From Breznakia sp. PF5-3 (lineage in GTDB: Bacteria > Bacillota_I > Bacilli_A > Erysipelotrichales > Erysipelotrichaceae): DNA of 32,000 bases. Shown here piece after piece: positions 22,892 to 32,000 of this stretch. The first letter of the stretch is position 1; the number at the start of each line of letters is the position of its first letter. The notes beneath the pieces are model-generated. The model did no database searches. It was not told where the DNA came from and saw only the letters and a program-made list of their open reading frames with translations. The translations under genes were made by a program, and so were the position numbers. The DNA is taken from assembly GCF_029504745.1 (NCBI RefSeq), contig NZ_JAQFIQ010000001.1, positions 96,322-128,321 on the forward strand, read 5' to 3'.

Positions 22892-23039
22892 ATAGCGAAG
22901 TGTTGCGTATTTACTGGATTTTTTTGAGATTAGGCAATAGTTCATGAAAGTCCGTATTTCTTATTTTGAAACATATCTACTGCAAAAACGGTCAGAGTGT
23001 TTAGGCAGTGGATTAGATGTTATAGAAGGAGGCGTTTTC

Positions 23040-23813
23040 ATGGAATTTGATTTGAGAACTTGTGATGCAGCATACAACTTCGTTCTTGATTTTATGGGTA
23101 TGACTCCTGATGAGTACATCACAGAGAGTATTATAAATTGTGAGAATGACTTTGAGACATTTTGGAGCCGGAATATTAAACGAATAAAATCAATTGATAT
23201 TTCTGGGGTGAGGCTGATGGCATTTCATGTTGTAGGTTCAATTGATGAATGTTGCGAGATTAAAGAAAATGGTTTGATGAATTTACAAAGTGTTCTTTCG
23301 GAAGAAACCATCTTAAAGAAGCTATTAGAAAAAACAGGTGTCATATTTGATATTCCAAATAAGCTCGTGAGCTGTAAAGAGAATAATTATGACATTGATT
23401 ATGAGAAATACAAAGGCCATCATTTCTTGACAGGAATGGATGAAAAGTTATACCGTGTTGCTCATCGAGTTTATTATGATTTTTGTGTAAATGGATTCAT
23501 GGCTAATGATAATGTGTTCAATTATGGTACTAACATTCACGAAAGGCCTGAATTCTTAATGACACTCGGAGAATTATTTCCGCAGGCAGAAAAAGTTGAA
23601 AGTTTCTGGAAAACAAAAGCTAAGAGTTATAGAGTTGACTTCTATGCGACCATTGACCAAGTTCACCGATTCAATTTTGAACTTGATGAGTATAGAGACC
23701 CTCCTTACGAGGATTGGGTTGACCTTGATGATGATATGAAACTTAAAAAATGGATGTTATCACACATTATTGATAGAGCGCATGGCGATTTGGGCATACA
23801 ATTTTATATATAA
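23040..23813 (+). CDS. hypothetical protein (no recognised family), first gene of accessory region
   Basis: The ORF is open from 22944, but GAAGGAGG lies 7 nt upstream of the ATG at 23040, giving a 257-aa product (MEFDLRTCDAAY...). The protein is acidic and soluble-looking. I recognise no catalytic motif. Confidence 0.7.
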   Translation: MEFDLRTCDAAYNFVLDFMGMTPDEYITESIINCENDFETFWSRNIKRIKSIDISGVRLMAFHVVGSIDECCEIKENGLMNLQSVLSEETILKKLLEKTGVIFDIPNKLVSCKENNYDIDYEKYKGHHFLTGMDEKLYRVAHRVYYDFCVNGFMANDNVFNYGTNIHERPEFLMTLGELFPQAEKVESFWKTKAKSYRVDFYATIDQVHRFNFELDEYRDPPYEDWVDLDDDMKLKKWMLSHIIDRAHGDLGIQFYI

Positions 23814-23890
23814 AAGATGATGTGATAATTCCGGTAAATCAAATTATTGATATTTCAGAATTATAAAAGCATATAAAAGGCGGTGTGATT

Positions 23891-24442
23891 ATGGGTGAAT
23901 ATGTAAAAAAGAAAAAATACATGGTATTCCAAAGTGTAGAATCACTTCAGCAAGCTGTTAATGTTCTAAATGATGCGGCAGCTGCGGTAAATGATAAATC
24001 ACGTACAATTAGAGAAAGCGCAATCCCTGAAGTGCTTGCAGGAGTATTAGGTGCTGGTATTGGCGGAGTAGGTTCTTTTGCTGCACTTTACGGGTTGGGT
24101 TCTGTTGTAGGATTATCAGCAGCAGGTATAACATCAGGACTTGCTGCAGCAGGTAGCATTGTTAGCGGCGGTATGGTTGCAGGTGTATTCGTACTTGCAG
24201 CACCTGTAGCAGCCCTTGCAGCAGCAGGAGTAGGATTTGCTACACACTTAAAAAATAAACAGTTAAGACAAGAAAAAGAACGTTTGTATAAAGAAGCTTT
24301 GAAAAAGCATGAAGCAATTATTCAAGCTTTGAAATCTGAGGTTGATGCTGATAAAGAGCGTCTCGATTACTTACAGAGCTTAAATATTCTTCTTACGCAA
24401 ATAATAAAAGACTTAAAGAAGGATTTGGGTAAGGCGGCATGA
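23891..24442 (+). CDS. hypothetical Gly/Ala-rich (glycine-zipper) membrane protein with C-terminal coiled coil
   Basis: 183 aa from the ATG at 23891 (GTG at 23885 is also possible). Three regions are visible. There is an N-terminal helix. There are about 75 aa of G/A/V/S-rich hydrophobic sequence (GVLGAGIGGVGSFAALYGLGSVVGLSAAGITSGLAAAGSIVSGGMVAGVFVLAAPVAALAAAGVGFA). The C-terminus is a charged heptad-like helix (KNKQLRQEKERLYKEALKKHEAIIQALKSEVDADKERL). AAGGCGG serves as SD. Confidence 0.75.
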   Translation: MGEYVKKKKYMVFQSVESLQQAVNVLNDAAAAVNDKSRTIRESAIPEVLAGVLGAGIGGVGSFAALYGLGSVVGLSAAGITSGLAAAGSIVSGGMVAGVFVLAAPVAALAAAGVGFATHLKNKQLRQEKERLYKEALKKHEAIIQALKSEVDADKERLDYLQSLNILLTQIIKDLKKDLGKAA

Positions 24443-25800
24443 GCAAATTCAAGTACACTGAAACAGAACAACAATTTAATAATGCTTTGAATCATCAGTC
24501 AAAAGAATTAAGTTTAATTAAAAGACCTGATATGACATCAGTAGAAGTTTGCATTTCTGAGAGCGAAGAACTACTGAAGGAGTTAGGTATCTCTACAGAG
24601 AGTATGCCTGAAGTGGTTAACCCTACATTTCAAAGGGGGATGGTAGTTCCTACGTGGGAGGAATTGTGCATTCAAGCTGAACAGGAAGTTGGTTCAACAA
24701 CAGATTTAGAATCCCTTTTTACAGATGAAGAATTGAGAATGAATCAAGTTGCTCTACGTGCTTTGAATATCGATTACAATAATATTCATAAGCTTGATAA
24801 AATAGATATTACTATTTGTGCAACTGCAGGTATTTTGGGCGTTGTTGTTGATATTCTACTAATAGGAATTCCGAAAAAAACACCAGAAGGTTTAAAAGGT
24901 GGGCCACTTTCCAATTATGTAAGAGACTGGTTTAATCAAAGATTTCCAGAAGTAGAAATGGAAAAACTCTCCAATTCAAAAGTAAGCAAAGTATCATTTG
25001 ATGCTCAGGATAATCGCCATACTACAGAGTATGTTACCGGTTTATCTGCTTACTATCATAGATTGTTATCGCTTGGGCATGACCCTATCCTTGGATTGAT
25101 ATTTGGAGTTTATGACATTTTGACTGATAAAATGACGACGATTGATAAAACTGGCAAAATGGTATCTCAGGTTATGGAAAACTATGCAGACCGAAAAGAA
25201 AGTGATATTTTTGCTGCAATTGCTAAGCAGATTATTCATTTCAAATCTGACATTACAACGTCTATGGGGCTACCGGCTCCTTTGATGGCATTATTTAACT
25301 TACTCCAGTTTGGTAGTATTGGAGAAGAAGAACAGATAATTGCTGAAATTGTGCAGGGAATGTATTACGAAGGTTATGATTTCATTCATTTTTGTAGTAT
25401 GTCAATTCCGACAATGATAATTGAAGTAATCATCAGATTAGGCTATGGCATTAAGAGGATTAAAGAAGGTAATTCTATAAAGGACTCGATTCCTTTTTCA
25501 TTAAATCGAGAAAAACATCCAAAGCTGAGCACTATGTTATTCATTGGACATTCTGCGGCTACTGCTGTAAATGCTGGAAAGGTTTACTTCACCAAAAATC
25601 CTATGGCAATAAACTATCCTCAATGGATAACATTTGCTAAATATTTATACAAACAATTGAAATGGGTGTTGTTAGAGAAACAAGAACTTAAAGATGCCTA
25701 CGTTAGAGGTATCATTGCTGAAGAATTGAATGAAATATATGCTGAAATAGATAATAGCTTCACGGAAATGTCGGAAGAGTATATAGTTGTCTTTAATTAA
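24439..25800 (+). CDS. hypothetical membrane-associated protein, translationally coupled to the upstream gene
   Basis: 453-aa ORF. The ATGA start/stop overlap is at 24439-24442. The same AAGGCGG SD motif lies 1 nt upstream. Hydrophobic segments include ITICATAGILGVVVDILLIGIP, IHFCSMSIPTMIIEVIIRLGYGI and LSTMLFIGHSAATAVNAG. The conserved-looking stretch YHRLLSLGHDPILGLIFGVYD stands out. I recognise no family. Confidence 0.8.
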   Translation: MSKFKYTETEQQFNNALNHQSKELSLIKRPDMTSVEVCISESEELLKELGISTESMPEVVNPTFQRGMVVPTWEELCIQAEQEVGSTTDLESLFTDEELRMNQVALRALNIDYNNIHKLDKIDITICATAGILGVVVDILLIGIPKKTPEGLKGGPLSNYVRDWFNQRFPEVEMEKLSNSKVSKVSFDAQDNRHTTEYVTGLSAYYHRLLSLGHDPILGLIFGVYDILTDKMTTIDKTGKMVSQVMENYADRKESDIFAAIAKQIIHFKSDITTSMGLPAPLMALFNLLQFGSIGEEEQIIAEIVQGMYYEGYDFIHFCSMSIPTMIIEVIIRLGYGIKRIKEGNSIKDSIPFSLNREKHPKLSTMLFIGHSAATAVNAGKVYFTKNPMAINYPQWITFAKYLYKQLKWVLLEKQELKDAYVRGIIAEELNEIYAEIDNSFTEMSEEYIVVFN

Positions 25801-25849: not shown

Positions 25850-26530
25850 TTATCTTTCAACATCGACCTTGAATCCGAATTTCAATTCAACGGTACAGTG
25901 AGTAGGCCAGATTATAATTTGCTTGAGCCAGCATTTTACAAGCTCCTGCTGAAGCTCCATAAGCTTCTCATCAATGCCATCCGTGGTGATTGCAGTAGAA
26001 GCTCTGATGACCGATGCGATATTTTGATTTATCTCTAAGAAGCTCATTCTAGACGATGAGTACAATTTCCTGCAGGTCAATCTCGTTGATGATTCTTGCG
26101 AGGCACTCAAGGCCATGGGTTCTAACTTGCTGATGCAGCGCCAGACGATGGATTTGCAGCCACGGTTGTTCCAATGAATTCTTCTGAACATTTCACCACA
26201 ATCACCACAAATAATAATCTGTGAGAAGCAGTGCTTGCAGCTGTAGCTTCGTTTCTTTCCATTAGCACTGGTCTTAACCACTCGCCTGTATACCAATTCT
26301 TCCTGCCACGCATGTAAATTTCTCTAGGAATAATCGCTTCGCGGTTTCCTTCAACATAATATTATGGAACGATGCCACTGTTCTTAACTCTGGTCTTGTT
26401 CGGTTTTTGGACTTTTTGTTGTAAAGTAAGAACCAAACATATCCACGGTTAAAATGTCGTAGGGTTGAGTTTAGAAGATGAAAACGGTAGGGAGTGGATA
26501 TAGGATTGTTAAAAGAAATTAATTGAGTAC
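25850..26530 (-). pseudogene. large serine recombinase remnant (C-terminal recombinase / zinc beta-ribbon part only; multiple frameshifts and stops; catalytic N-terminus absent)
   Basis: Recombinase-like peptide is spread over all three minus-strand frames:
- LQQKVQKPNKTRVKNSGIVP*YYVEGNREAIIPREIYM, with a stop at 26362-26364
- a frameshift near 26305-26311, leading into QEELVYRR...KKRSYSCKHCFSQIIICGDCGEMFRRIHWNNRGCKSIVWRCISKLE
- a frameshift near 26115-26122, leading into HGLECLARIINEIDLQEIVLIV*, with a stop at 26049-26051
- a further shift into FLEINQNIASVI...IDEKLMELQQELVK...HCTVELKFGFKVDVER
The pattern matches what I recall of TndX/Ccr-like large serine recombinases. The upper boundary (26530) is approximate. 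Confidence 0.8.
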
Positions 26531-26890
26531 GGAGTATCGAGAGGAAGTTTGCAAATAAGAGAAATAAAGAACAGAAAACCAATTGTATCTGGTACATTAT
26601 AAGAAGTGAATAATCCGCAAAAGTATTATACAGGCAGTAAAATGATTATGTCTAGTCTCCAGATACGGCTTCAATCTAGGTGTTCCTGCAACAGTTCATT
26701 GTGACGGAGAAAACTAATCATAACAGTGAATGATATTAATAATTTGTAGAGGATGGTGTTGTATACAATTAAAAACCTAGGATGATAATTTTATTATTTA
26801 AATATAATCAAATATCATCAAACTGATGCAAATATAATAAAAATGAGTATAATAAAGAGAAGCAGTTTAATTATACAGAGAGGTGATGTT

Positions 26891-27040
26891 ATGCAAAATA
26901 GCAACGAAGATATATGGATTAATATTAATGAAGCTTCTGAATATTTAGGTGTAAAAACTGTTACTTTACGTGGAGTGATAAAGAATGAGAATTCTGTTCC
27001 AGCATATAAAGTTGGTAAGCAGTGGAAATTCAAACGATAG
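26891..27040 (+). CDS. excisionase-family (MerR-like) helix-turn-helix DNA-binding protein
   Basis: 49 aa from the ATG at 26891 (GAGAGGTGA SD upstream). The sequence WININEASEYLGVKTVTLRGVIKNENSVPAYKVGKQWKFKR fits the HTH_17 / Xis-type pattern (L...EAA.yLGVs..TL......G.iPa.KvGk.WrF.r). The longer 65-aa ORF from 26843 is not favoured. Confidence 0.75.
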   Translation: MQNSNEDIWININEASEYLGVKTVTLRGVIKNENSVPAYKVGKQWKFKR

Positions 27041-27077: not shown

Positions 27078-27239
27078 ATGAAACAAAAAAAGATTAAGCA
27101 TTTATCATTGTTTGCCGGGTACGGTGGTATAAATTTAGGTTTTCAATGGGCAGGTTTCAAGACAGTTGCAGGAGTAGAAATCAAACAATTTGCTTGTGAT
27201 ATTCTTAGAAAAAAATGGAGAGATAAATCATGGCACTAA
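27078..27239 (+). pseudogene. DNA (cytosine-5) methyltransferase, 5' stub only (motif I region), truncated
   Basis: MKQKKIKHLSLFAGYGGINLGFQWAGFKTVAGVEIKQFACD matches the N-terminus of C5-MTases: motif I F.G.GG and the following acidic E of motif II. The frame stops after 53 codons. I found no PCQ or ENV catalytic motif downstream in any frame. The stop overlaps the start of the DUF262 gene. Confidence 0.7.
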
Positions 27240-28531
27240 TTCAAGAAGAATTAAAAATAATTAAATTAAAAGACTTACTTAATATAAATTTAGCCTTGCC
27301 TTCATATCAGCGTCCATATAGTTGGAGTGCGAAGTCAAGTAATACCTTATTTATTGATACATATGAAGCCTTTAAGGATGGAATAAACGAATACCGACTT
27401 GGATCGGTAATCTTACAGAAAGAATGTTCAGAAAAATATAATATTGTTGATGGACAACAAAGACTTACTACCTTAACAATTCTACTTTTTTGCTTAGGCG
27501 ATGACAATCAAAGATTGTTGGAAGAAAAATACAGCAAACTATCTAATGATGTTATTGTTACAAATTTTGGTGTTCTTTCTAAAAGAACTAACGAATTAAC
27601 TGATGATGAGCGTAAAAAATATAAAGATTATCTTTTGAATCAATGCACCACGGTTCAAATTGTTACAGATAGTGAACAAGAGGCGTTTCAGTTCTTCGAT
27701 TCACAAAATTCTCGTGGAAAAGAGTTAGCACCACATGATTTGTTGAAATCATACCATTTACGGGAAATGAATAACGAGGATGAAAAACAAAAAGTTAAAA
27801 TTATAAATAACTGGGAAAATATGAATCAAGATGATCTAGATGATTTATTTAAAAACTATTTGTACCCACTAACTCAATGGTATAAGAAAAAAAAGGGGTT
27901 GGGTTATTCTTCAAGCAAAATTGATTCTTTCAAAGGAATTAAAGGAACAAATATCTACAACTATGCAATTTATCATAAAGCTAGTAGTCTGTATGTAGAA
28001 CAACTCAATACTAATGGTAGTAGTGAATTACTTGCCTCAAAATTTTTGAATCAATTCCAATTGACACAACCATTGATAGCTGGAAAGCGATTCTTTAATT
28101 ATACACTCCATTACGGGAAATTATTAGAAAAGATTCAAAAACAAATTAACCGCTTTTATAACCATGAGCAAGTTCCAAGTAAGCGTTCTGGCGATATTTA
28201 TATTATGCAACTTTATGAATGTTCATTATTATTCTTTGCAGATAGATTTGGTCTTGAGAGTTTAACCCAATCCGTGATGCAACAACTTTATTCATGGAGT
28301 TATTCATTGAGAATGGCAATGAATGCAGTGTATCCGCAGACCATCAATAAATATGCGCAAGGTCAGCATGAACGTGCAAACTATGGAATCGATATGTTTG
28401 CTGAAATCAGCGAAATGGCTGATCCAGAAGAATTGAAGTTGCTGGTGCTTACAAAGCCAGACATTGATGACAATAATAAGGAAAAATACAAAGCAATTTA
28501 TACATTGCTTTGTAAATGGAATGGATGGTAG
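27230..28531 (+). CDS. DUF262 (GmrS-like, ParB/Srx-fold NTPase) protein lacking a nuclease domain
   Basis: 433-aa ORF with the DUF262 motifs LPSYQRPYSW, VDGQQRLTTLTILL and FQFFDSQNSRGKELAPHDLLK. The C-terminal half is helical. I see no H..(N/H) His-Me motif. GGAGAG SD lies upstream. Confidence 0.85.
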   Translation: MALIQEELKIIKLKDLLNINLALPSYQRPYSWSAKSSNTLFIDTYEAFKDGINEYRLGSVILQKECSEKYNIVDGQQRLTTLTILLFCLGDDNQRLLEEKYSKLSNDVIVTNFGVLSKRTNELTDDERKKYKDYLLNQCTTVQIVTDSEQEAFQFFDSQNSRGKELAPHDLLKSYHLREMNNEDEKQKVKIINNWENMNQDDLDDLFKNYLYPLTQWYKKKKGLGYSSSKIDSFKGIKGTNIYNYAIYHKASSLYVEQLNTNGSSELLASKFLNQFQLTQPLIAGKRFFNYTLHYGKLLEKIQKQINRFYNHEQVPSKRSGDIYIMQLYECSLLFFADRFGLESLTQSVMQQLYSWSYSLRMAMNAVYPQTINKYAQGQHERANYGIDMFAEISEMADPEELKLLVLTKPDIDDNNKEKYKAIYTLLCKWNGW

Positions 28532-28534
28532 AAG

Positions 28535-30322
28535 ATGACTGAAGATTTAAAAATAATACCTGTATCAGATGTTTTTGCTAATATTAATTACCTAGTGCCA
28601 ATTTACCAACGTAACTATGCATGGAGAGAAACGCAAATAGAACAATTAATTGAAGATGTTGAAAGTTCCATTGACGATTCTAATAAAAACTACTTCTTAG
28701 GGAACTTGATTGTTAATCAAACGGATAACAATGTTTACGAAGTGATTGATGGACAGCAGCGATTAACGACTTTATATCTTCTTGAAAAGTATTTAGAGGT
28801 TGAATTTGCGAAAGAGGCATTGCGATTTGAGGCACGCGAAAAATCAAATCGTACCCTTTCCAATATCAGTAATAGTAATAACCAAGAATTAATTGAAGAA
28901 TTATTATCACCAGAAATTCTGAATGGTTTTCAAATCGTTGATAACTACTTCAAGAATAAAAATATCGACAAAAACAGATTTGCTCAAAAGTTAAAACAGG
29001 TTTTTCTTATTCGTATACAAGTTCCGCAGAATATTGATTTAAACCATTATTTTGAAATTATGAATACGCGTGGAGAACAATTAGAACTTCACGAAATCGC
29101 TAAAGCTAAGTTGTTAGAAGCACTTGAAAGCGATCAAGATAGAAATATAGCAGCACAGATTTGGGAAAAATGTTCTGATATGAATTCCTATGTTCAGATG
29201 AATTTTGATGTGAGTGTGCGAAGGAGTATCTTTACCGAAAACTGGAGCAGTCTTATTCCATCAATTACAAATTTTGACTCTATAAAAAGTAAAATTTCTA
29301 CAGACAATAAATCTACAGACAAAAAGTGTTTAATTGATATCTTGAAAGAAAATAAAATGGTTTATGTGTCAGACATGCAATCTGAAGATGAGAATGAACG
29401 TTTTGAATCGACTATTTCATTTCCAAACTTTTTATTGCAAGTCAATTCGGTTCTGAGAAATATTGGAGAAGAGGATGCAAACCTTGATGATAAACACTTT
29501 CTTAATAATTTATCTTGGGCATGGTCATCACCTGAAAATGCGAAAAATTTCTTGTTCCATATATTGAAATGTCGAGTGTTATTTGACAAGTATGTTTTAA
29601 AACGTGAGTTTGCTAGAGATTACAAAGAAACGGGCAAATGGTCCCTACAGCGTTTAGAAAAATACCGGGATAGCAAGAAAAATAGTGATAAACCAAAATA
29701 CGTTGGTACATTTGGCGATGAAGGTAATGAAAATAAGAAGTTAAGAACTCTTCAATCTTGTTTGCGTATTACTTATACATCACCAAAAACTATGCACTGG
29801 ATTACCGTTACTTTATCTAGCTTGTTAGAGAATGAGGAAGCTGATATTATTACTGTGCTAGAAAACTACTGTAAAAAGAAAGTCGTTGATTCCGATTACC
29901 AAAACCGAAACGGTTTTGAATTTGAACGCATTGTATTTTCATATCTTGATTATTTAATTTATCGAGATGGATATTCGTATGATGGAGAAGAAATAATATC
30001 ACCAATGCAAGAGGATTGGCAATTCCAGTTTAGAAGTTCCATTGAACATTTCCAACCTCAGCATCCAGTTGAAGGAGATTCTTGGGAACAGGGCGACTTG
30101 AACGAATTCGGTAATTTAGCGTTAATAACGGTTTCGGGGAACTCTAAGTTTTCTAACTTGCCACCTGCTGGAAAAATTAATTCATATCCGAGTGTCATCA
30201 GTCAAAGTCTGAAATTAAAAATCATGGAAAAAATGACGAGACTTGATGATGGAAAATGGACAGAAGAAAAGTCAAGTAGACATAAAAAAGAAATGTTCAG
30301 CATTTTGAAAAATAAAGGGTAG
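28535..30322 (+). CDS. GmrSD-family type IV (modification-dependent) restriction endonuclease-like protein (DUF262 + DUF1524)
   Basis: 595-aa ORF. The N-terminal DUF262 motifs are VPIYQRNYAW, IDGQQRLTTLYLL and FEIMNTRGEQLELHEIAKAKLL. The C-terminal DUF1524 His-Me finger-like motif is SIEHFQPQHP ... FGNLALITVSGNSKFSN. The gene starts 3 nt after the preceding stop. Confidence 0.88.
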   Translation: MTEDLKIIPVSDVFANINYLVPIYQRNYAWRETQIEQLIEDVESSIDDSNKNYFLGNLIVNQTDNNVYEVIDGQQRLTTLYLLEKYLEVEFAKEALRFEAREKSNRTLSNISNSNNQELIEELLSPEILNGFQIVDNYFKNKNIDKNRFAQKLKQVFLIRIQVPQNIDLNHYFEIMNTRGEQLELHEIAKAKLLEALESDQDRNIAAQIWEKCSDMNSYVQMNFDVSVRRSIFTENWSSLIPSITNFDSIKSKISTDNKSTDKKCLIDILKENKMVYVSDMQSEDENERFESTISFPNFLLQVNSVLRNIGEEDANLDDKHFLNNLSWAWSSPENAKNFLFHILKCRVLFDKYVLKREFARDYKETGKWSLQRLEKYRDSKKNSDKPKYVGTFGDEGNENKKLRTLQSCLRITYTSPKTMHWITVTLSSLLENEEADIITVLENYCKKKVVDSDYQNRNGFEFERIVFSYLDYLIYRDGYSYDGEEIISPMQEDWQFQFRSSIEHFQPQHPVEGDSWEQGDLNEFGNLALITVSGNSKFSNLPPAGKINSYPSVISQSLKLKIMEKMTRLDDGKWTEEKSSRHKKEMFSILKNKG

Positions 30323-30380
30323 AACAATACTTCAATACACAACGATTTATATATAGTAATAATAATCCTATTACAGGATC

Positions 30381-30755: not shown

Positions 30756-32000
30756 CTATTCATCATATTTTGTATAAATGAAGTCAAATATTTCACCGTT
30801 TATATCAGAATATGAATAGATTTGTTTTCTAGTATTTCTAGGGATTTCAGTTGAAATGTTCGTGAAGAACGTTGTTTGGGTTTCTTCATTTAGCAGCATT
30901 AACTGCTCATAAGAGATTACAAACTTAGTACCTGTTTTAAGTACTGAATAAACATATCTGGCAACCTTGTTTGCAATAGCTGTGACTGCTAACTTATGAC
31001 GTTTCTTGTTTCCGTTCTTGATTTTCTCAAAGTGAGCTTTAAGAACAGGATTATGACGGCGAGCAAATTCGGCAATCATATAGATAGCATGACGTAAATA
31101 ACGCGAACCACGTTTAGAGATTTTACCATGAGTATCTACAGAGGAACCAGACTTGGAGTTACAAGGACATAAACCAATGTAACTGACAAGTTTATCAGCA
31201 CAACTAAACAGTTTAATATCACTAATTTCAGAAAGAATAGCAGAAGCAGTGATATTACCACAACCAGGCATTGATTTTAATAAATCAAATGCTTCAAATG
31301 ATGAAGCAAGTACCTTCAATTCTTTTTCCAAAGAACGAAGAATTTCTTTAAGACGAAGTACTTCATCAACATTATCAAGGATAACGCGTTTCGAAGCGAG
31401 AGATATCTCAAAAGTGTTTAATGTATCTGAACACAAACGAAAGAGTTCATCAATCTTATCCATGCTTACACGCTTCTTACTAGCAGTAAAAGCAATGTTG
31501 TATACTTCCTCTTTGGAAGAATGCATGATATCATAAGTTGTAGGATATATTGATAAGATTGCAAGGAACACAGCAGATTTGGGTTCAAATACATACTGTA
31601 GTTCAGGAAAGTGTTTGTCACATCTACCAATGAGGCGATTAACTTCTTGAGTGTATGATTTCTTGCGTTGACAGTAACGGTGGAACGTATCTTTCAAATC
31701 AGTATGTCCTTTTATATTGGAATTAGGAGTTTTATTAACAAATAAAACATCATTCTCATTCGCAATAATAGAAGCAATAGATTGAGCATCAAGAGGATCA
31801 CTTTTACTCTTATTATGAGTGTCACACCAACGTTTAACATAAGTGGTGTTAAGTAACTTAACATGCTCATTATCAAGAGTATTAGAACATAGCCAATGAA
31901 AGAGGTTATCCATATAGTTACCAGTAACTTCCATCGCAAAAGTTATATTGGTACAATTAGAATTTGCAAAGGATCTAACAAGGTCAATGAAAGCATTGAC
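30756..32000 (-). CDS. IS110 family transposase / recombinase (N-terminus outside window)
   Basis: The minus-strand frame stays open from 31934 to base 32000 (VNAFIDLVRSFANSNCTNITFAMEVTGNYMDNL...). The true start is therefore beyond the window edge. DEDD-domain pieces are present (AMEVTGNY; KSDPLDAQSIA). So is the C-terminal Transposase_20 signature (MPGCGNITASAILSEI.DI..F....KLVSYIGLCP...SGSS......ISKRGSRYLRHAIY). Confidence 0.9.
   Translation of the reverse strand, partial: VNAFIDLVRSFANSNCTNITFAMEVTGNYMDNLFHWLCSNTLDNEHVKLLNTTYVKRWCDTHNKSKSDPLDAQSIASIIANENDVLFVNKTPNSNIKGHTDLKDTFHRYCQRKKSYTQEVNRLIGRCDKHFPELQYVFEPKSAVFLAILSIYPTTYDIMHSSKEEVYNIAFTASKKRVSMDKIDELFRLCSDTLNTFEISLASKRVILDNVDEVLRLKEILRSLEKELKVLASSFEAFDLLKSMPGCGNITASAILSEISDIKLFSCADKLVSYIGLCPCNSKSGSSVDTHGKISKRGSRYLRHAIYMIAEFARRHNPVLKAHFEKIKNGNKKRHKLAVTAIANKVARYVYSVLKTGTKFVISYEQLMLLNEETQTTFFTNISTEIPRNTRKQIYSYSDINGEIFDFIYTKYDE
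30756..32000 (-). mobile_element. IS110-family insertion sequence (partial; ends not determinable from this window)
   Basis: The call rests on the transposase above. IS110-family elements lack classical terminal inverted repeats, so I cannot place the 3' end within the AT-rich 30416-30755 spacer. Confidence 0.6.

What the first reader, a model, noticed from the sequence alone, without database searches (positions are those of the whole stretch)
27230..30322. Two-gene paired-DUF262 cassette: nuclease-less DUF262 protein plus DUF262-DUF1524 protein
Both proteins carry a complete set of DUF262 motifs (YQR.Y.W, DGQQRLTT, N.RG..L...D/E..K). Only the second carries the DUF1524 His-Me nuclease motif (EH..PQ ... 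GNL.L....N).

The genes are 3 nt apart, so they are almost certainly co-expressed. Canonical GmrSD/BrxU/SspE enzymes are single fused polypeptides, and classic GmrS/GmrD splits the two domains. A duplicated sensor/NTPase domain (GmrS-like plus full GmrSD-like) implies a hetero-oligomeric arrangement. The nuclease-less paralogue may set modification specificity or regulate the nuclease.

From memory, a two-protein GmrSD-like system of this kind (TgvAB) has been reported in Vibrio cholerae. I am not sure its architecture is identical. Gram-positive versions are, as far as I know, uncharacterised.
Basis: partly seen in the sequence, partly recalled or inferred. Interest (0 to 1): 0.7.

Follow-up and report, generated by a model that had tools for sequence, protein, structure and literature searches.

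The report
TgvAB-type two-protein restriction cassette
The two genes are real and form a conserved pair, but they belong to TgvAB, an already described two-protein anti-phage system that cuts chemically modified DNA, so this is an untested Gram-positive copy of a known system rather than a new one.

Summary
Gene A (27230-28531, 433 aa) is DUF262 plus Pfam DUF7834. Gene B (28535-30322, 595 aa) is DUF262 plus the DUF1524 His-Me nuclease. They are 3 nt apart.

A aligns with V. cholerae TgvA over 367 residues, including the C-terminal domain, which in TgvA is also DUF7834. B aligns with TgvB. Each window protein is closer to its namesake than to the other partner. A Syntrophomonas wolfei pair that is 72% and 68% identical to the window pair is already listed in the published TgvAB survey.

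The pairing held wherever it could be tested:
- 56 of 56 A-type loci in reference genomes have B directly downstream.
- 40 of 40 B-type metagenome loci have A directly upstream.
- 12 of 12 viral-contig loci are paired.

The two DUF262 domains form separate clades. A and B co-diverge (r = 0.94). Both are under equal purifying selection (dN/dS 0.11). The cassette moves as a unit, 27209-30326.

It sits in a small defence island of a Breznakia sp. chromosome and abuts a truncated dcm gene.

Most likely function: modification-dependent (type IV) restriction that needs both proteins. The target modification is unknown. Novelty is low: a new member of a known kind.

The parts
27209..30326 (+). Whole mobile two-gene module (short leader with ribosome-binding site, gene A, gene B)
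   Evidence: Nucleotide homology to L001 (88.6% identical) spans exactly window 27209-30326. Homology to viral contig L164 (83.6%) spans 27230-30327. The flanks are unrelated.
27209..27229 (+). Shared leader with ribosome-binding site (GGAGAG, 8 nt before the ATG); no shared promoter region
   Evidence: The alignment with L001 starts to match here; sequence read. The promoter scan gave no more sites than shuffled sequence (30 found, 23.7 expected).
27230..28531 (+). Gene A, TgvA homologue, 433 aa: DUF262 NTPase/sensor domain plus DUF7834; no nuclease
   Evidence: 28% identical to V. cholerae TgvA over 367 aa, E 5e-30. 72% identical to S. wolfei ABI69499, which is listed as a VC1767 homologue.
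27275..27757 (+). DUF262 (GmrSD_N) domain of A, with YQRPYSW (27305-27325), DGQQRLTT (27449-27472) and FDSQN..K (27695-27748)
   Evidence: Q27, R28, D74-R78, F156, Q159 and N160 are invariant across 45 A proteins.
27791..28489 (+). DUF7834 (PF25202), the TgvA-specific helical C-terminal domain
   Evidence: E 3.8e-63. Present in 45 of 45 A proteins and in V. cholerae TgvA itself (E 3.4e-38). No counterpart in B (hhalign) or in the PDB.
28535..30322 (+). Gene B, TgvB homologue, 595 aa: DUF262, helical linker, DUF1524 His-Me nuclease
   Evidence: 24% identical to V. cholerae TgvB over 335 aa, E 9e-25. 68% identical to S. wolfei ABI69498.
28565..29116 (+). DUF262 domain of B, with YQRNYAW (28604-28624), DGQQRLTT (28748-28771) and FEIMN..K (29051-29104)
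   Evidence: Invariant residues across 45 B proteins are listed.
29909..30298 (+). DUF1524 (GmrSD_C) His-Me nuclease domain of B, with EHFQP (30044-30058) and GNLALITVSGN (30110-30142)
   Evidence: S502, E504, H505, G526, N527, N536 and K547 are invariant in 45 B proteins. 44 of 45 B proteins match PF07510.
27078..27239 (+). Context: remnant of a C5 cytosine DNA methyltransferase gene (motif I only), cut off at the left edge of the module
   Evidence: Matches PF00145 profile positions 2-44 of 324 only. No further dcm sequence follows gene B.
26843..27040 (+). Context: small HTH_17/excisionase-like ORF upstream; possibly the source of transcription into the cassette (inferred)
   Evidence: No terminator-like site on the + strand between it and gene A.

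Best explanation

- **Expression.** The two genes are transcribed and translated together.
- **Protein A.** It has a DUF262 NTPase/sensor domain plus the TgvA-specific helical domain DUF7834.
- **Protein B.** It has a DUF262 NTPase/sensor domain, a helical linker and a DUF1524 His-Me nuclease.
- **Inferred mechanism.** A and B are inferred to form a hetero-oligomer in place of the homodimer of single-chain enzymes such as BrxU. Nucleotide binding and hydrolysis by both DUF262 domains would license B's nuclease to cut incoming DNA that carries a non-host base modification.

Shown here: homology to TgvA and TgvB, intact motifs, strict pairing, co-divergence, purifying selection, and mobility as a unit.

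Taken from V. cholerae experiments: both proteins are needed, the DGQQR motifs of both and the nuclease motif of B are essential, and the target is sugar-modified 5hmC DNA.

Inferred only: the complex, and the modification targeted by this copy. This copy is only 24-28% identical to the Vibrio proteins, so its target is unknown.
For: **Architecture and motifs.**

**Published TgvAB properties.** The architecture is the same. Both genes are needed. DGQQR mutants of either protein, and H571A or N602A in TgvB, abolish defence.

**Direct homology.**
- A vs TgvA: E 5e-30 over 367 aa, reaching into the C-terminal domain.
- B vs TgvB: E 9e-25.
- A scores 97-191 bits against six TgvA-type proteins and at most 69 bits against any B-type. 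B scores 93-247 bits against B-types and at most 69 bits against A-types.
- DUF7834 is present in V. cholerae TgvA.
- The S. wolfei pair in the published TgvAB hit list is 72% and 68% identical to the window pair.

**Pairing.**
- 56 of 56 testable A-type loci in 62 species genomes have B directly downstream. Gaps range from -32 to +80 nt; most are overlaps of 1-8 nt or gaps of 0-3 nt.
- 40 of 40 testable B-type metagenome loci have A upstream.
- 12 of 12 viral contigs are paired.

**Evolution.**
- Pairwise identities of A and B correlate at r = 0.94; 0 of 2000 Mantel permutations reached this.
- In a tree of DUF262 domains, the B-only split has 100/100 bootstrap support and the A-only split 68/100.
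- dN/dS is 0.112 for A and 0.113 for B.
- The module boundary coincides with the two genes.
Against: - No experiment exists for this clade or for any Gram-positive TgvAB in the searched literature.
- Identity to the tested Vibrio proteins is low (24-28%), so specificity cannot be transferred.
- The published V. cholerae sequences I had were cut at 399 aa. TgvB's nuclease part was therefore compared only indirectly, through a close Vibrio-type relative (L055).
- No promoter can be assigned to the cassette, so expression in this genome is unproven.
- The closest reference genome (L001, a metagenome-assembled genome, MAG) has a 1-nt deletion in A.
- A physical A-B complex is inferred, not shown.
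Confidence: 0.8

Rival explanations
1. B is a self-sufficient GmrSD-type enzyme. A is an accessory that is not needed for cutting, for example a decoy or shield against phage inhibitors of the IPI*/TifA kind, or a regulator that keeps B off.
For: B has the complete single-chain GmrSD architecture. The authors of the TgvAB paper raise the anti-inhibitor and regulatory options themselves. Single-chain relatives such as Eco94GmrSD, BrxU, HEC-06 and E. faecalis EF_B0059 work alone.
Against: In V. cholerae, TgvB alone gave no protection even when over-expressed, and DGQQR mutants of TgvA abolished defence. No B-type gene without A was found among 40 testable loci. A is as constrained as B.
Confidence: 0.12
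2. A is a decaying duplicate of B's N-terminal half (a pseudogene in the making), and the pairing is incidental.
For: One close relative (L001) has a 1-nt deletion in A. L047 has A split.
Against: A and B share only about 27% identity, confined to DUF262. A has its own conserved domain, DUF7834, in 45 of 45 members. dN/dS is 0.11. The 120 closest homologues are full length. Pairing was seen in 56/56, 40/40 and 12/12 loci. B is also split in L020 and L028, so occasional breaks are not specific to A.
Confidence: 0.01
3. The pair is the effector arm of a phosphorothioate-sensing system of the SspE or DndI type, and depends on host DNA phosphorothioation.
For: The nearest solved structures and PADLOC models for the DUF262 domains are SspE and DndI.
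Against: The similarity is limited to DUF262. No dnd or ssp modification genes appear among the ORFs of the window. The module travels alone with unrelated flanks.
Confidence: 0.03
4. The cassette is intact but silent in this genome. It landed without a promoter inside a broken dcm gene of a decayed mobile element.
For: Shared sequence starts only 21 nt before gene A. The surroundings are remnants: a truncated dcm, recombinase fragments and an IS110.
Against: Both ORFs are intact and identical in a second assembly of nearly the same strain. The upstream HTH/dcm' ORFs run in the same direction with no terminator-like site between, so read-through transcription is plausible. This rival concerns expression only, not identity.
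Confidence: 0.1

Closest known systems
TgvAB (VC1767/VC1766) of Vibrio cholerae VPI-2; two-protein GmrSD-like type IV restriction system (PMC11411939; bioRxiv 10.1101/2024.04.05.588314)
   Same: Same gene order and tight coupling. A is DUF262 plus DUF7834. B is DUF262 plus DUF1524. All catalytic motifs are present. Homology is reciprocal and subunit-specific. A 72%/68% identical Clostridia pair is in the authors' own hit list.
   Different: Only 24-28% identical to the Vibrio proteins. Not embedded in a type I R-M operon. The host is a Gram-positive (Breznakia, Erysipelotrichia). The target modification is untested.
[quoted passage not shown]
   Same: Two DUF262 proteins, one of which carries DUF1524. 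Both are required. It is modification dependent.
   Different: The order is reversed: the full GmrSD-like protein comes first. GrwB has several other C-terminal domains and is stated to be distinct from TgvA. The window's A matches TgvA and DUF7834 instead.
Single-chain GmrSD family (Eco94GmrSD, BrxU/HEC-05, HEC-06, SspE, DndI, E. faecalis EF_B0059)
   Same: B has the same DUF262, linker and DUF1524 layout. The DUF262 domains match PADLOC HEC-06, Orf5 and SspE models and the SspE and DndI structures.
   Different: Those enzymes act as one polypeptide. Here the B clade is always accompanied by A and forms its own DUF262 clade.
Split GmrS/GmrD of E. coli CT596
   Same: A two-polypeptide type IV enzyme built from DUF262 and DUF1524.
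   Different: That system splits the two domains between two proteins. Here DUF262 is duplicated and the nuclease stays fused to one copy.

Membership tests
TgvAB | Two adjacent co-directional genes, the DUF262-only gene first, overlapping or a few nt apart | tested here: met
   3-nt gap. V. cholerae tgvA and tgvB overlap by 8 bp. Family-wide gaps range from -32 to +80 nt and are mostly overlaps of 1-8 nt or gaps of 0-3 nt.
TgvAB | TgvA-type subunit: N-terminal DUF262 with QR, DGQQR and FxxxN motifs; no DUF1524 | tested here: met
TgvAB | TgvA-type C-terminal domain (Pfam DUF7834), homologous to that of VC1767 | tested here: met
   E 3.8e-63 in the window protein and 3.4e-38 in VC1767. The BLASTP alignment runs to residue 362.
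TgvAB | TgvB-type subunit: DUF262 plus DUF1524 with the H...N...N His-Me motif | tested here: met
   The direct alignment to VC1766 covers only its first 347 residues, because the published sequence was cut at 399 aa.
TgvAB | Subunit-specific orthology (A closer to TgvA than to any TgvB, and the reverse) | tested here: met
   clade separation.
TgvAB | Both proteins necessary and together sufficient for defence | not testable with these tools
   Shown only for V. cholerae. Strict co-occurrence here is indirect support.
TgvAB | Restricts DNA with glucosylated or arabinosylated 5hmC | not testable with these tools
   (V. cholerae only).
TgvAB | Embedded in a type I R-M operon. This gives the name but is not general: 79 of the 1,341 published hits. 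| tested here: not met
   No hsd genes in the window. The publication reports the pair 17 times more often outside such operons.
GrwAB | Full GmrSD-like gene first; second gene is DUF262 plus several other domains, distinct from TgvA | tested here: not met
   Order and domain content are opposite.
Single-chain GmrSD/BrxU | One polypeptide carries both domains and stands alone in the genome | tested here: not met
   The B clade always has an A partner: 40 of 40 loci.
SspE/DndI phosphorothioate-sensing nucleases | Genetic linkage to ssp or dnd modification genes | tested here: not met
   None found in 32 kb. The rest of the genome was not seen.

The most novel reading that the evidence does not exclude
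This low-identity Bacillota clade of TgvAB may read a different modification from the Vibrio enzyme, possibly plain 5-methylcytosine or another mark common in Firmicute phages. On that reading, the dcm gene cut off exactly at the cassette's left edge would record a conflict between an incoming modification-dependent nuclease and a resident cytosine methylase. DUF7834 in A would then be the module that sets specificity.
Probability: 0.1. Interest if true: 0.5.

Novelty: new member of a known kind. Interest (0 to 1): 0.25.

Why it matters
The finding adds little that is new in kind. It does give three useful things.

1. **A compact family definition.** Pfam DUF7834 marks the TgvA subunit. The pair is obligate in both directions across at least six phyla, and on plasmids and viral contigs.
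2. **A Gram-positive representative for experiments.** Why a complete GmrSD-like nuclease needs a second DUF262 protein is still an open mechanistic question for TgvAB and GrwAB. The more than 100 natural A-B pairs collected here would support paired-alignment modelling of the complex.
3. **A concrete annotation.** The region downstream of the rlmCD-like gene in Breznakia can now be annotated as a small defence island.

Tried and rejected
- **NCBIfam** has no model for either protein.
- **PADLOC 2023** has only partial DUF262 matches to HEC-06, Orf5 and SspE, and no model for the pair.
- **Single-sequence PDB search:** nothing for A, weak SspE hits for B.
- **Exact look-up of A and B in the contig index** failed. 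A near-identical contig (L081) was found through GatB. It is the same strain (99.96% identical), so it adds no independent evidence.
- **Profile-profile test** of whether DUF7834 is a degenerate version of B's linker or nuclease: no similarity beyond DUF262.
- **AlphaFold2 model of A** was only moderate (pLDDT 71; residues 228-287 poor). Foldseek matched only SspE and DndI through DUF262, so the fold of DUF7834 stays unassigned.
- **First bootstrap run** timed out. The second had invalid distances. Only one search is used.
- **E. faecalis EF_B0058/EF_B0059** looked like a possible Gram-positive two-gene precedent, but EF_B0058 is a serine recombinase.
- **Motif scan for full-length C5 methylases** next to other TgvAB loci found none: one hit in 241 loci, beside a generic DUF262 gene. 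This neither supports nor excludes the dcm-conflict idea.
- **No plasmid** matches the upstream HTH/dcm' region.
Full report
**Observation**

Both are on the + strand and are separated by TAG-AAG-ATG.

Pfam gives these domains:
- A has GmrSD_N/DUF262 (residues 16-176) and DUF7834 (188-420, E 3.8e-63).
- B has GmrSD_N (11-194) and GmrSD_C/DUF1524 (459-588).

The His-Me motif (EHFQP ... GNLALITVSGN) occurs only in B. The genes are not chance ORFs. More than 7,000 database proteins match A at E <= 1e-5, and the best 120 are all 421-444 aa with the same two domains.

**Identity**

TgvAB of V. cholerae VPI-2 was described in two 2024 papers.
- TgvA (VC1767) has DUF262 only. TgvB (VC1766) has DUF262 plus DUF1524.
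- The genes overlap by 8 bp.
- Neither gene alone protects, even when over-expressed.
- Substitutions in the DGQQR motif of either protein, or in H571 or N602 of TgvB, abolish defence.
- The targets are T-even phages with sugar-modified 5hmC.

Supplementary Table S5 of PMC11411939 prints the first 399 or so residues of each hit. I used these sequences for direct comparison.
- Window A aligns with TgvA at 28% identity over 367 residues (E 5e-30). The alignment runs well past DUF262 into the C-terminal domain.
- Window B aligns with TgvB at 24% identity over 335 residues (E 9e-25).
- In an all-against-all BLAST, A scores 97-191 bits against six TgvA-type proteins from Vibrio, Pasteurella, Psychrobacter, Bifidobacterium and Cytophaga, and at most 69 bits against any TgvB-type. 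B behaves reciprocally: 93-247 bits against B-types and at most 69 bits against A-types.
- V. cholerae TgvA itself matches DUF7834 (E 3.4e-38). This Pfam family is therefore the TgvA C-terminal domain.
- Hit 6 of the published TgvAB list, Syntrophomonas wolfei ABI69499/ABI69498 (a Clostridia member), is 72% and 68% identical to window A and B.

The other described two-gene relative is GrwAB. It has the opposite gene order, and its authors state that GrwB is distinct from TgvA. The window is therefore TgvAB-type, not GrwAB-type.

**Is the pairing conserved?**

I scanned one genome per GTDB species with an alignment of A proteins and obtained 80 loci.
- 62 loci encode A-type proteins.
- In all 56 with at least 1.8 kb of downstream sequence, a B-type gene follows directly on the same strand.
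- The other six run into a contig end.
- Estimated gaps range from -32 to +80 nt. Most are overlaps of 1-8 nt or gaps of 0-3 nt, the usual signature of translational coupling.
- The hosts span Bacillota, Bacteroidota, Pseudomonadota, Actinomycetota, Spirochaetota and Verrucomicrobiota.

The reverse test scanned metagenome contigs with an alignment of B proteins.
- 43 loci were B-type.
- All 40 with room upstream carry an A-type gene directly upstream. Three that my script flagged as solo are only long open frames overlapping a visible A gene.
- Three loci lie at contig ends.

In IMG/VR viral contigs, 12 of 12 testable A-type loci have B. All 45 aligned A proteins carry DUF7834 plus DUF262. All 45 B proteins carry DUF262, and 44 of them carry DUF1524.

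These are samples, not a census. Each scan used two DUF262 peptide patterns, kept the best 80 loci, and was classified with my own score thresholds.

**Recent duplicate or ancient pair?**

- A and B share only about 27% identity, confined to DUF262.
- A profile-profile comparison of the two families aligns A 5-199 with B 2-214 and nothing else.
- In a neighbour-joining tree of 109 DUF262 domains, the B-only split has 100/100 bootstrap support and the A-only split 68/100. Generic single-chain proteins sometimes intrude near A.
- Pairwise identities of A and of B across 46 loci correlate at r = 0.94. None of 2000 Mantel permutations reached this value.
- Against the 84%-identical copy L164, dN/dS is 0.112 for A and 0.113 for B.

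A is therefore an old, selected partner and not a decaying copy. Occasional breaks do occur. L001, the closest reference genome and a metagenome-assembled genome (MAG), has a 1-nt deletion in A. A is split in L047, and B is split in L020 and L028. These breaks affect both genes. They may be assembly errors or sporadic loss.

**Mobility and context**

Nucleotide similarity to L001 covers exactly window 27209-30326. Similarity to L164 covers 27230-30327. The flanks are unrelated in both cases. The unit that moves is therefore the bare two-gene cassette with a 21-nt leader carrying GGAGAG. A 72%-identical copy with the same 3-nt gap is annotated on a plasmid record assigned to Klebsiella grimontii.

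The window itself is chromosomal. Its genes include pyk, pgi, pcrA-ligA-camS-gatCAB and an rlmCD-like methyltransferase. Its housekeeping proteins are identical to those of unclassified Breznakia strains, in the Erysipelotrichia of the Bacillota.

Downstream of the rlmCD-like gene, in order, lie:
- a Bunzi-like pair (BnzB E 3.1e-62; BnzA partial);
- fragments of a serine recombinase;
- a small HTH_17 ORF;
- the first 44 or so profile positions of a C5 cytosine methylase;
- the cassette;
- an IS110 transposase.

The methylase remnant ends at the cassette's left boundary, and nothing resembling the rest of it follows gene B. The cassette appears to have replaced the body of dcm. No promoter can be assigned: the scan found no more sites than in shuffled sequence. 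Transcription probably enters from the HTH/dcm' side. That is an inference.

**Structure**

- No solved structure matches A by single-sequence search.
- Family profiles hit only DUF262 and DUF1524 relatives: DndI 9jfl, SspE 6jiv, the 20yv entries and 7dri.
- An AlphaFold2 model of A, built on 57 sequences, reached pLDDT 71 and pTM 0.53. The DUF262 domain is confident. Helices from about residue 290 to 430 are reasonably confident. The segment 228-287 is poor.
- Foldseek returned SspE and DndI with low TM-scores (0.3-0.4) and nothing specific for DUF7834.

This agrees with the published remark that TgvA resembles GmrSD enzymes only in DUF262.

**Mechanism**

The best-supported reading is a modification-dependent restriction enzyme made of two proteins.

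The following is shown:
- intact NTPase motifs in both DUF262 domains;
- an intact His-Me site in B;
- residues invariant across 45 family members (A: Q27, R28, D74-R78, N160, K173, H176, R178, W195, G285, R361; B: Q25, R26, D72-R76, N177, E504, H505, N527, N536, K547);
- obligate co-occurrence and co-divergence of the two genes.

The following is borrowed from V. cholerae:
- both proteins and both NTPase sites are needed;
- the nuclease of B is the effector;
- defence is direct and depends on DNA modification.

The following is inferred:
- A and B form a hetero-oligomer, analogous to the NTP-regulated homodimer proposed for BrxU;
- DUF7834 contributes to recognition or regulation;
- the nature of the modification recognised by this clade. 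At 24-28% identity to the Vibrio proteins, specificity cannot be transferred.

**Comparison and novelty**

The cassette meets every sequence-level criterion of TgvAB. It fails only the type I R-M embedding that gives the system its name, and the original paper shows that feature applies to 79 of 1,341 hits.

Close homologues from Gram-positive bacteria are already in that paper's table, with Lactobacillales at 4.2% and Bifidobacteriales at 2.1% of hits. A 2026 Klebsiella survey that used DefenseFinder and PADLOC already reports TgvAB among its systems. I found no experimental work on a Gram-positive TgvAB in the searchable literature.

The finding is therefore a correct identification of a new member of a known kind. 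Its residual interest lies in three things: the unresolved role of the second DUF262 protein, the unknown specificity of this clade, and the juxtaposition with a truncated dcm. That juxtaposition could reflect a methylase/type IV conflict, but it is a single anecdote.

Noticed in passing
window 23885-24442 and 24439-25800 (+): Two overlapping genes match PADLOC Bunzi components: BnzA (E 2.4e-10, partial) and BnzB (E 3.1e-62, nearly full length). Neither has a Pfam hit. This is probably a second defence system just upstream of the cassette.
   Followed up: partly
window 22944-23813 (+): A 289-aa protein with no Pfam domain and a weak PADLOC match to PtuB (E 9.3e-5). It is the first gene after the rlmCD-like gene, at the start of the variable island.
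   Followed up: no
window 27078-27239 (+): Remnant of a C5 cytosine DNA methylase (motif I only) that ends exactly where the TgvAB cassette begins. No remainder lies downstream of gene B. The cassette seems to have replaced the gene body.
   Followed up: partly
window 25850-26313 (-): Overlapping short ORFs in different frames, one with a recombinase zinc-ribbon domain. This is probably a broken large serine recombinase gene, suggesting a decayed integrative element.
   Followed up: no
window 30756-31934 (-): IS110-family transposase (Transposase_20 plus DEDD_Tnp_IS110) 430 nt downstream of gene B.
   Followed up: no
L001 5986-7301: In the closest reference genome (a Bacillota MAG, 88.6% nucleotide identity), gene A carries a 1-nt deletion that splits it, while B is intact. 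It may be an assembly error or a real inactivation.
   Followed up: partly
L241 (CP079755.1, 224505-227588): A plasmid record assigned to Klebsiella grimontii carries a 72%-identical copy of the whole cassette with the same 3-nt gap. It is surrounded by genes that look Firmicute-like (CPBP protease, DUF4352, DUF4064, sigma factor). This is either inter-phylum transfer or a misassigned record.
   Followed up: no
window 28529-28537: A and B lie in the same reading frame, separated only by TAG-AAG. This is not conserved elsewhere, where overlaps of 1, 4 or 8 nt are common, so it is probably incidental.
   Followed up: partly
L171-L174 (IMG/VR viral contigs): A divergent subgroup of A/B pairs (A about 200 bits, B about 300 bits against the family profiles) sits on viral contigs. 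The pair is therefore also carried by phages or prophages.
   Followed up: no
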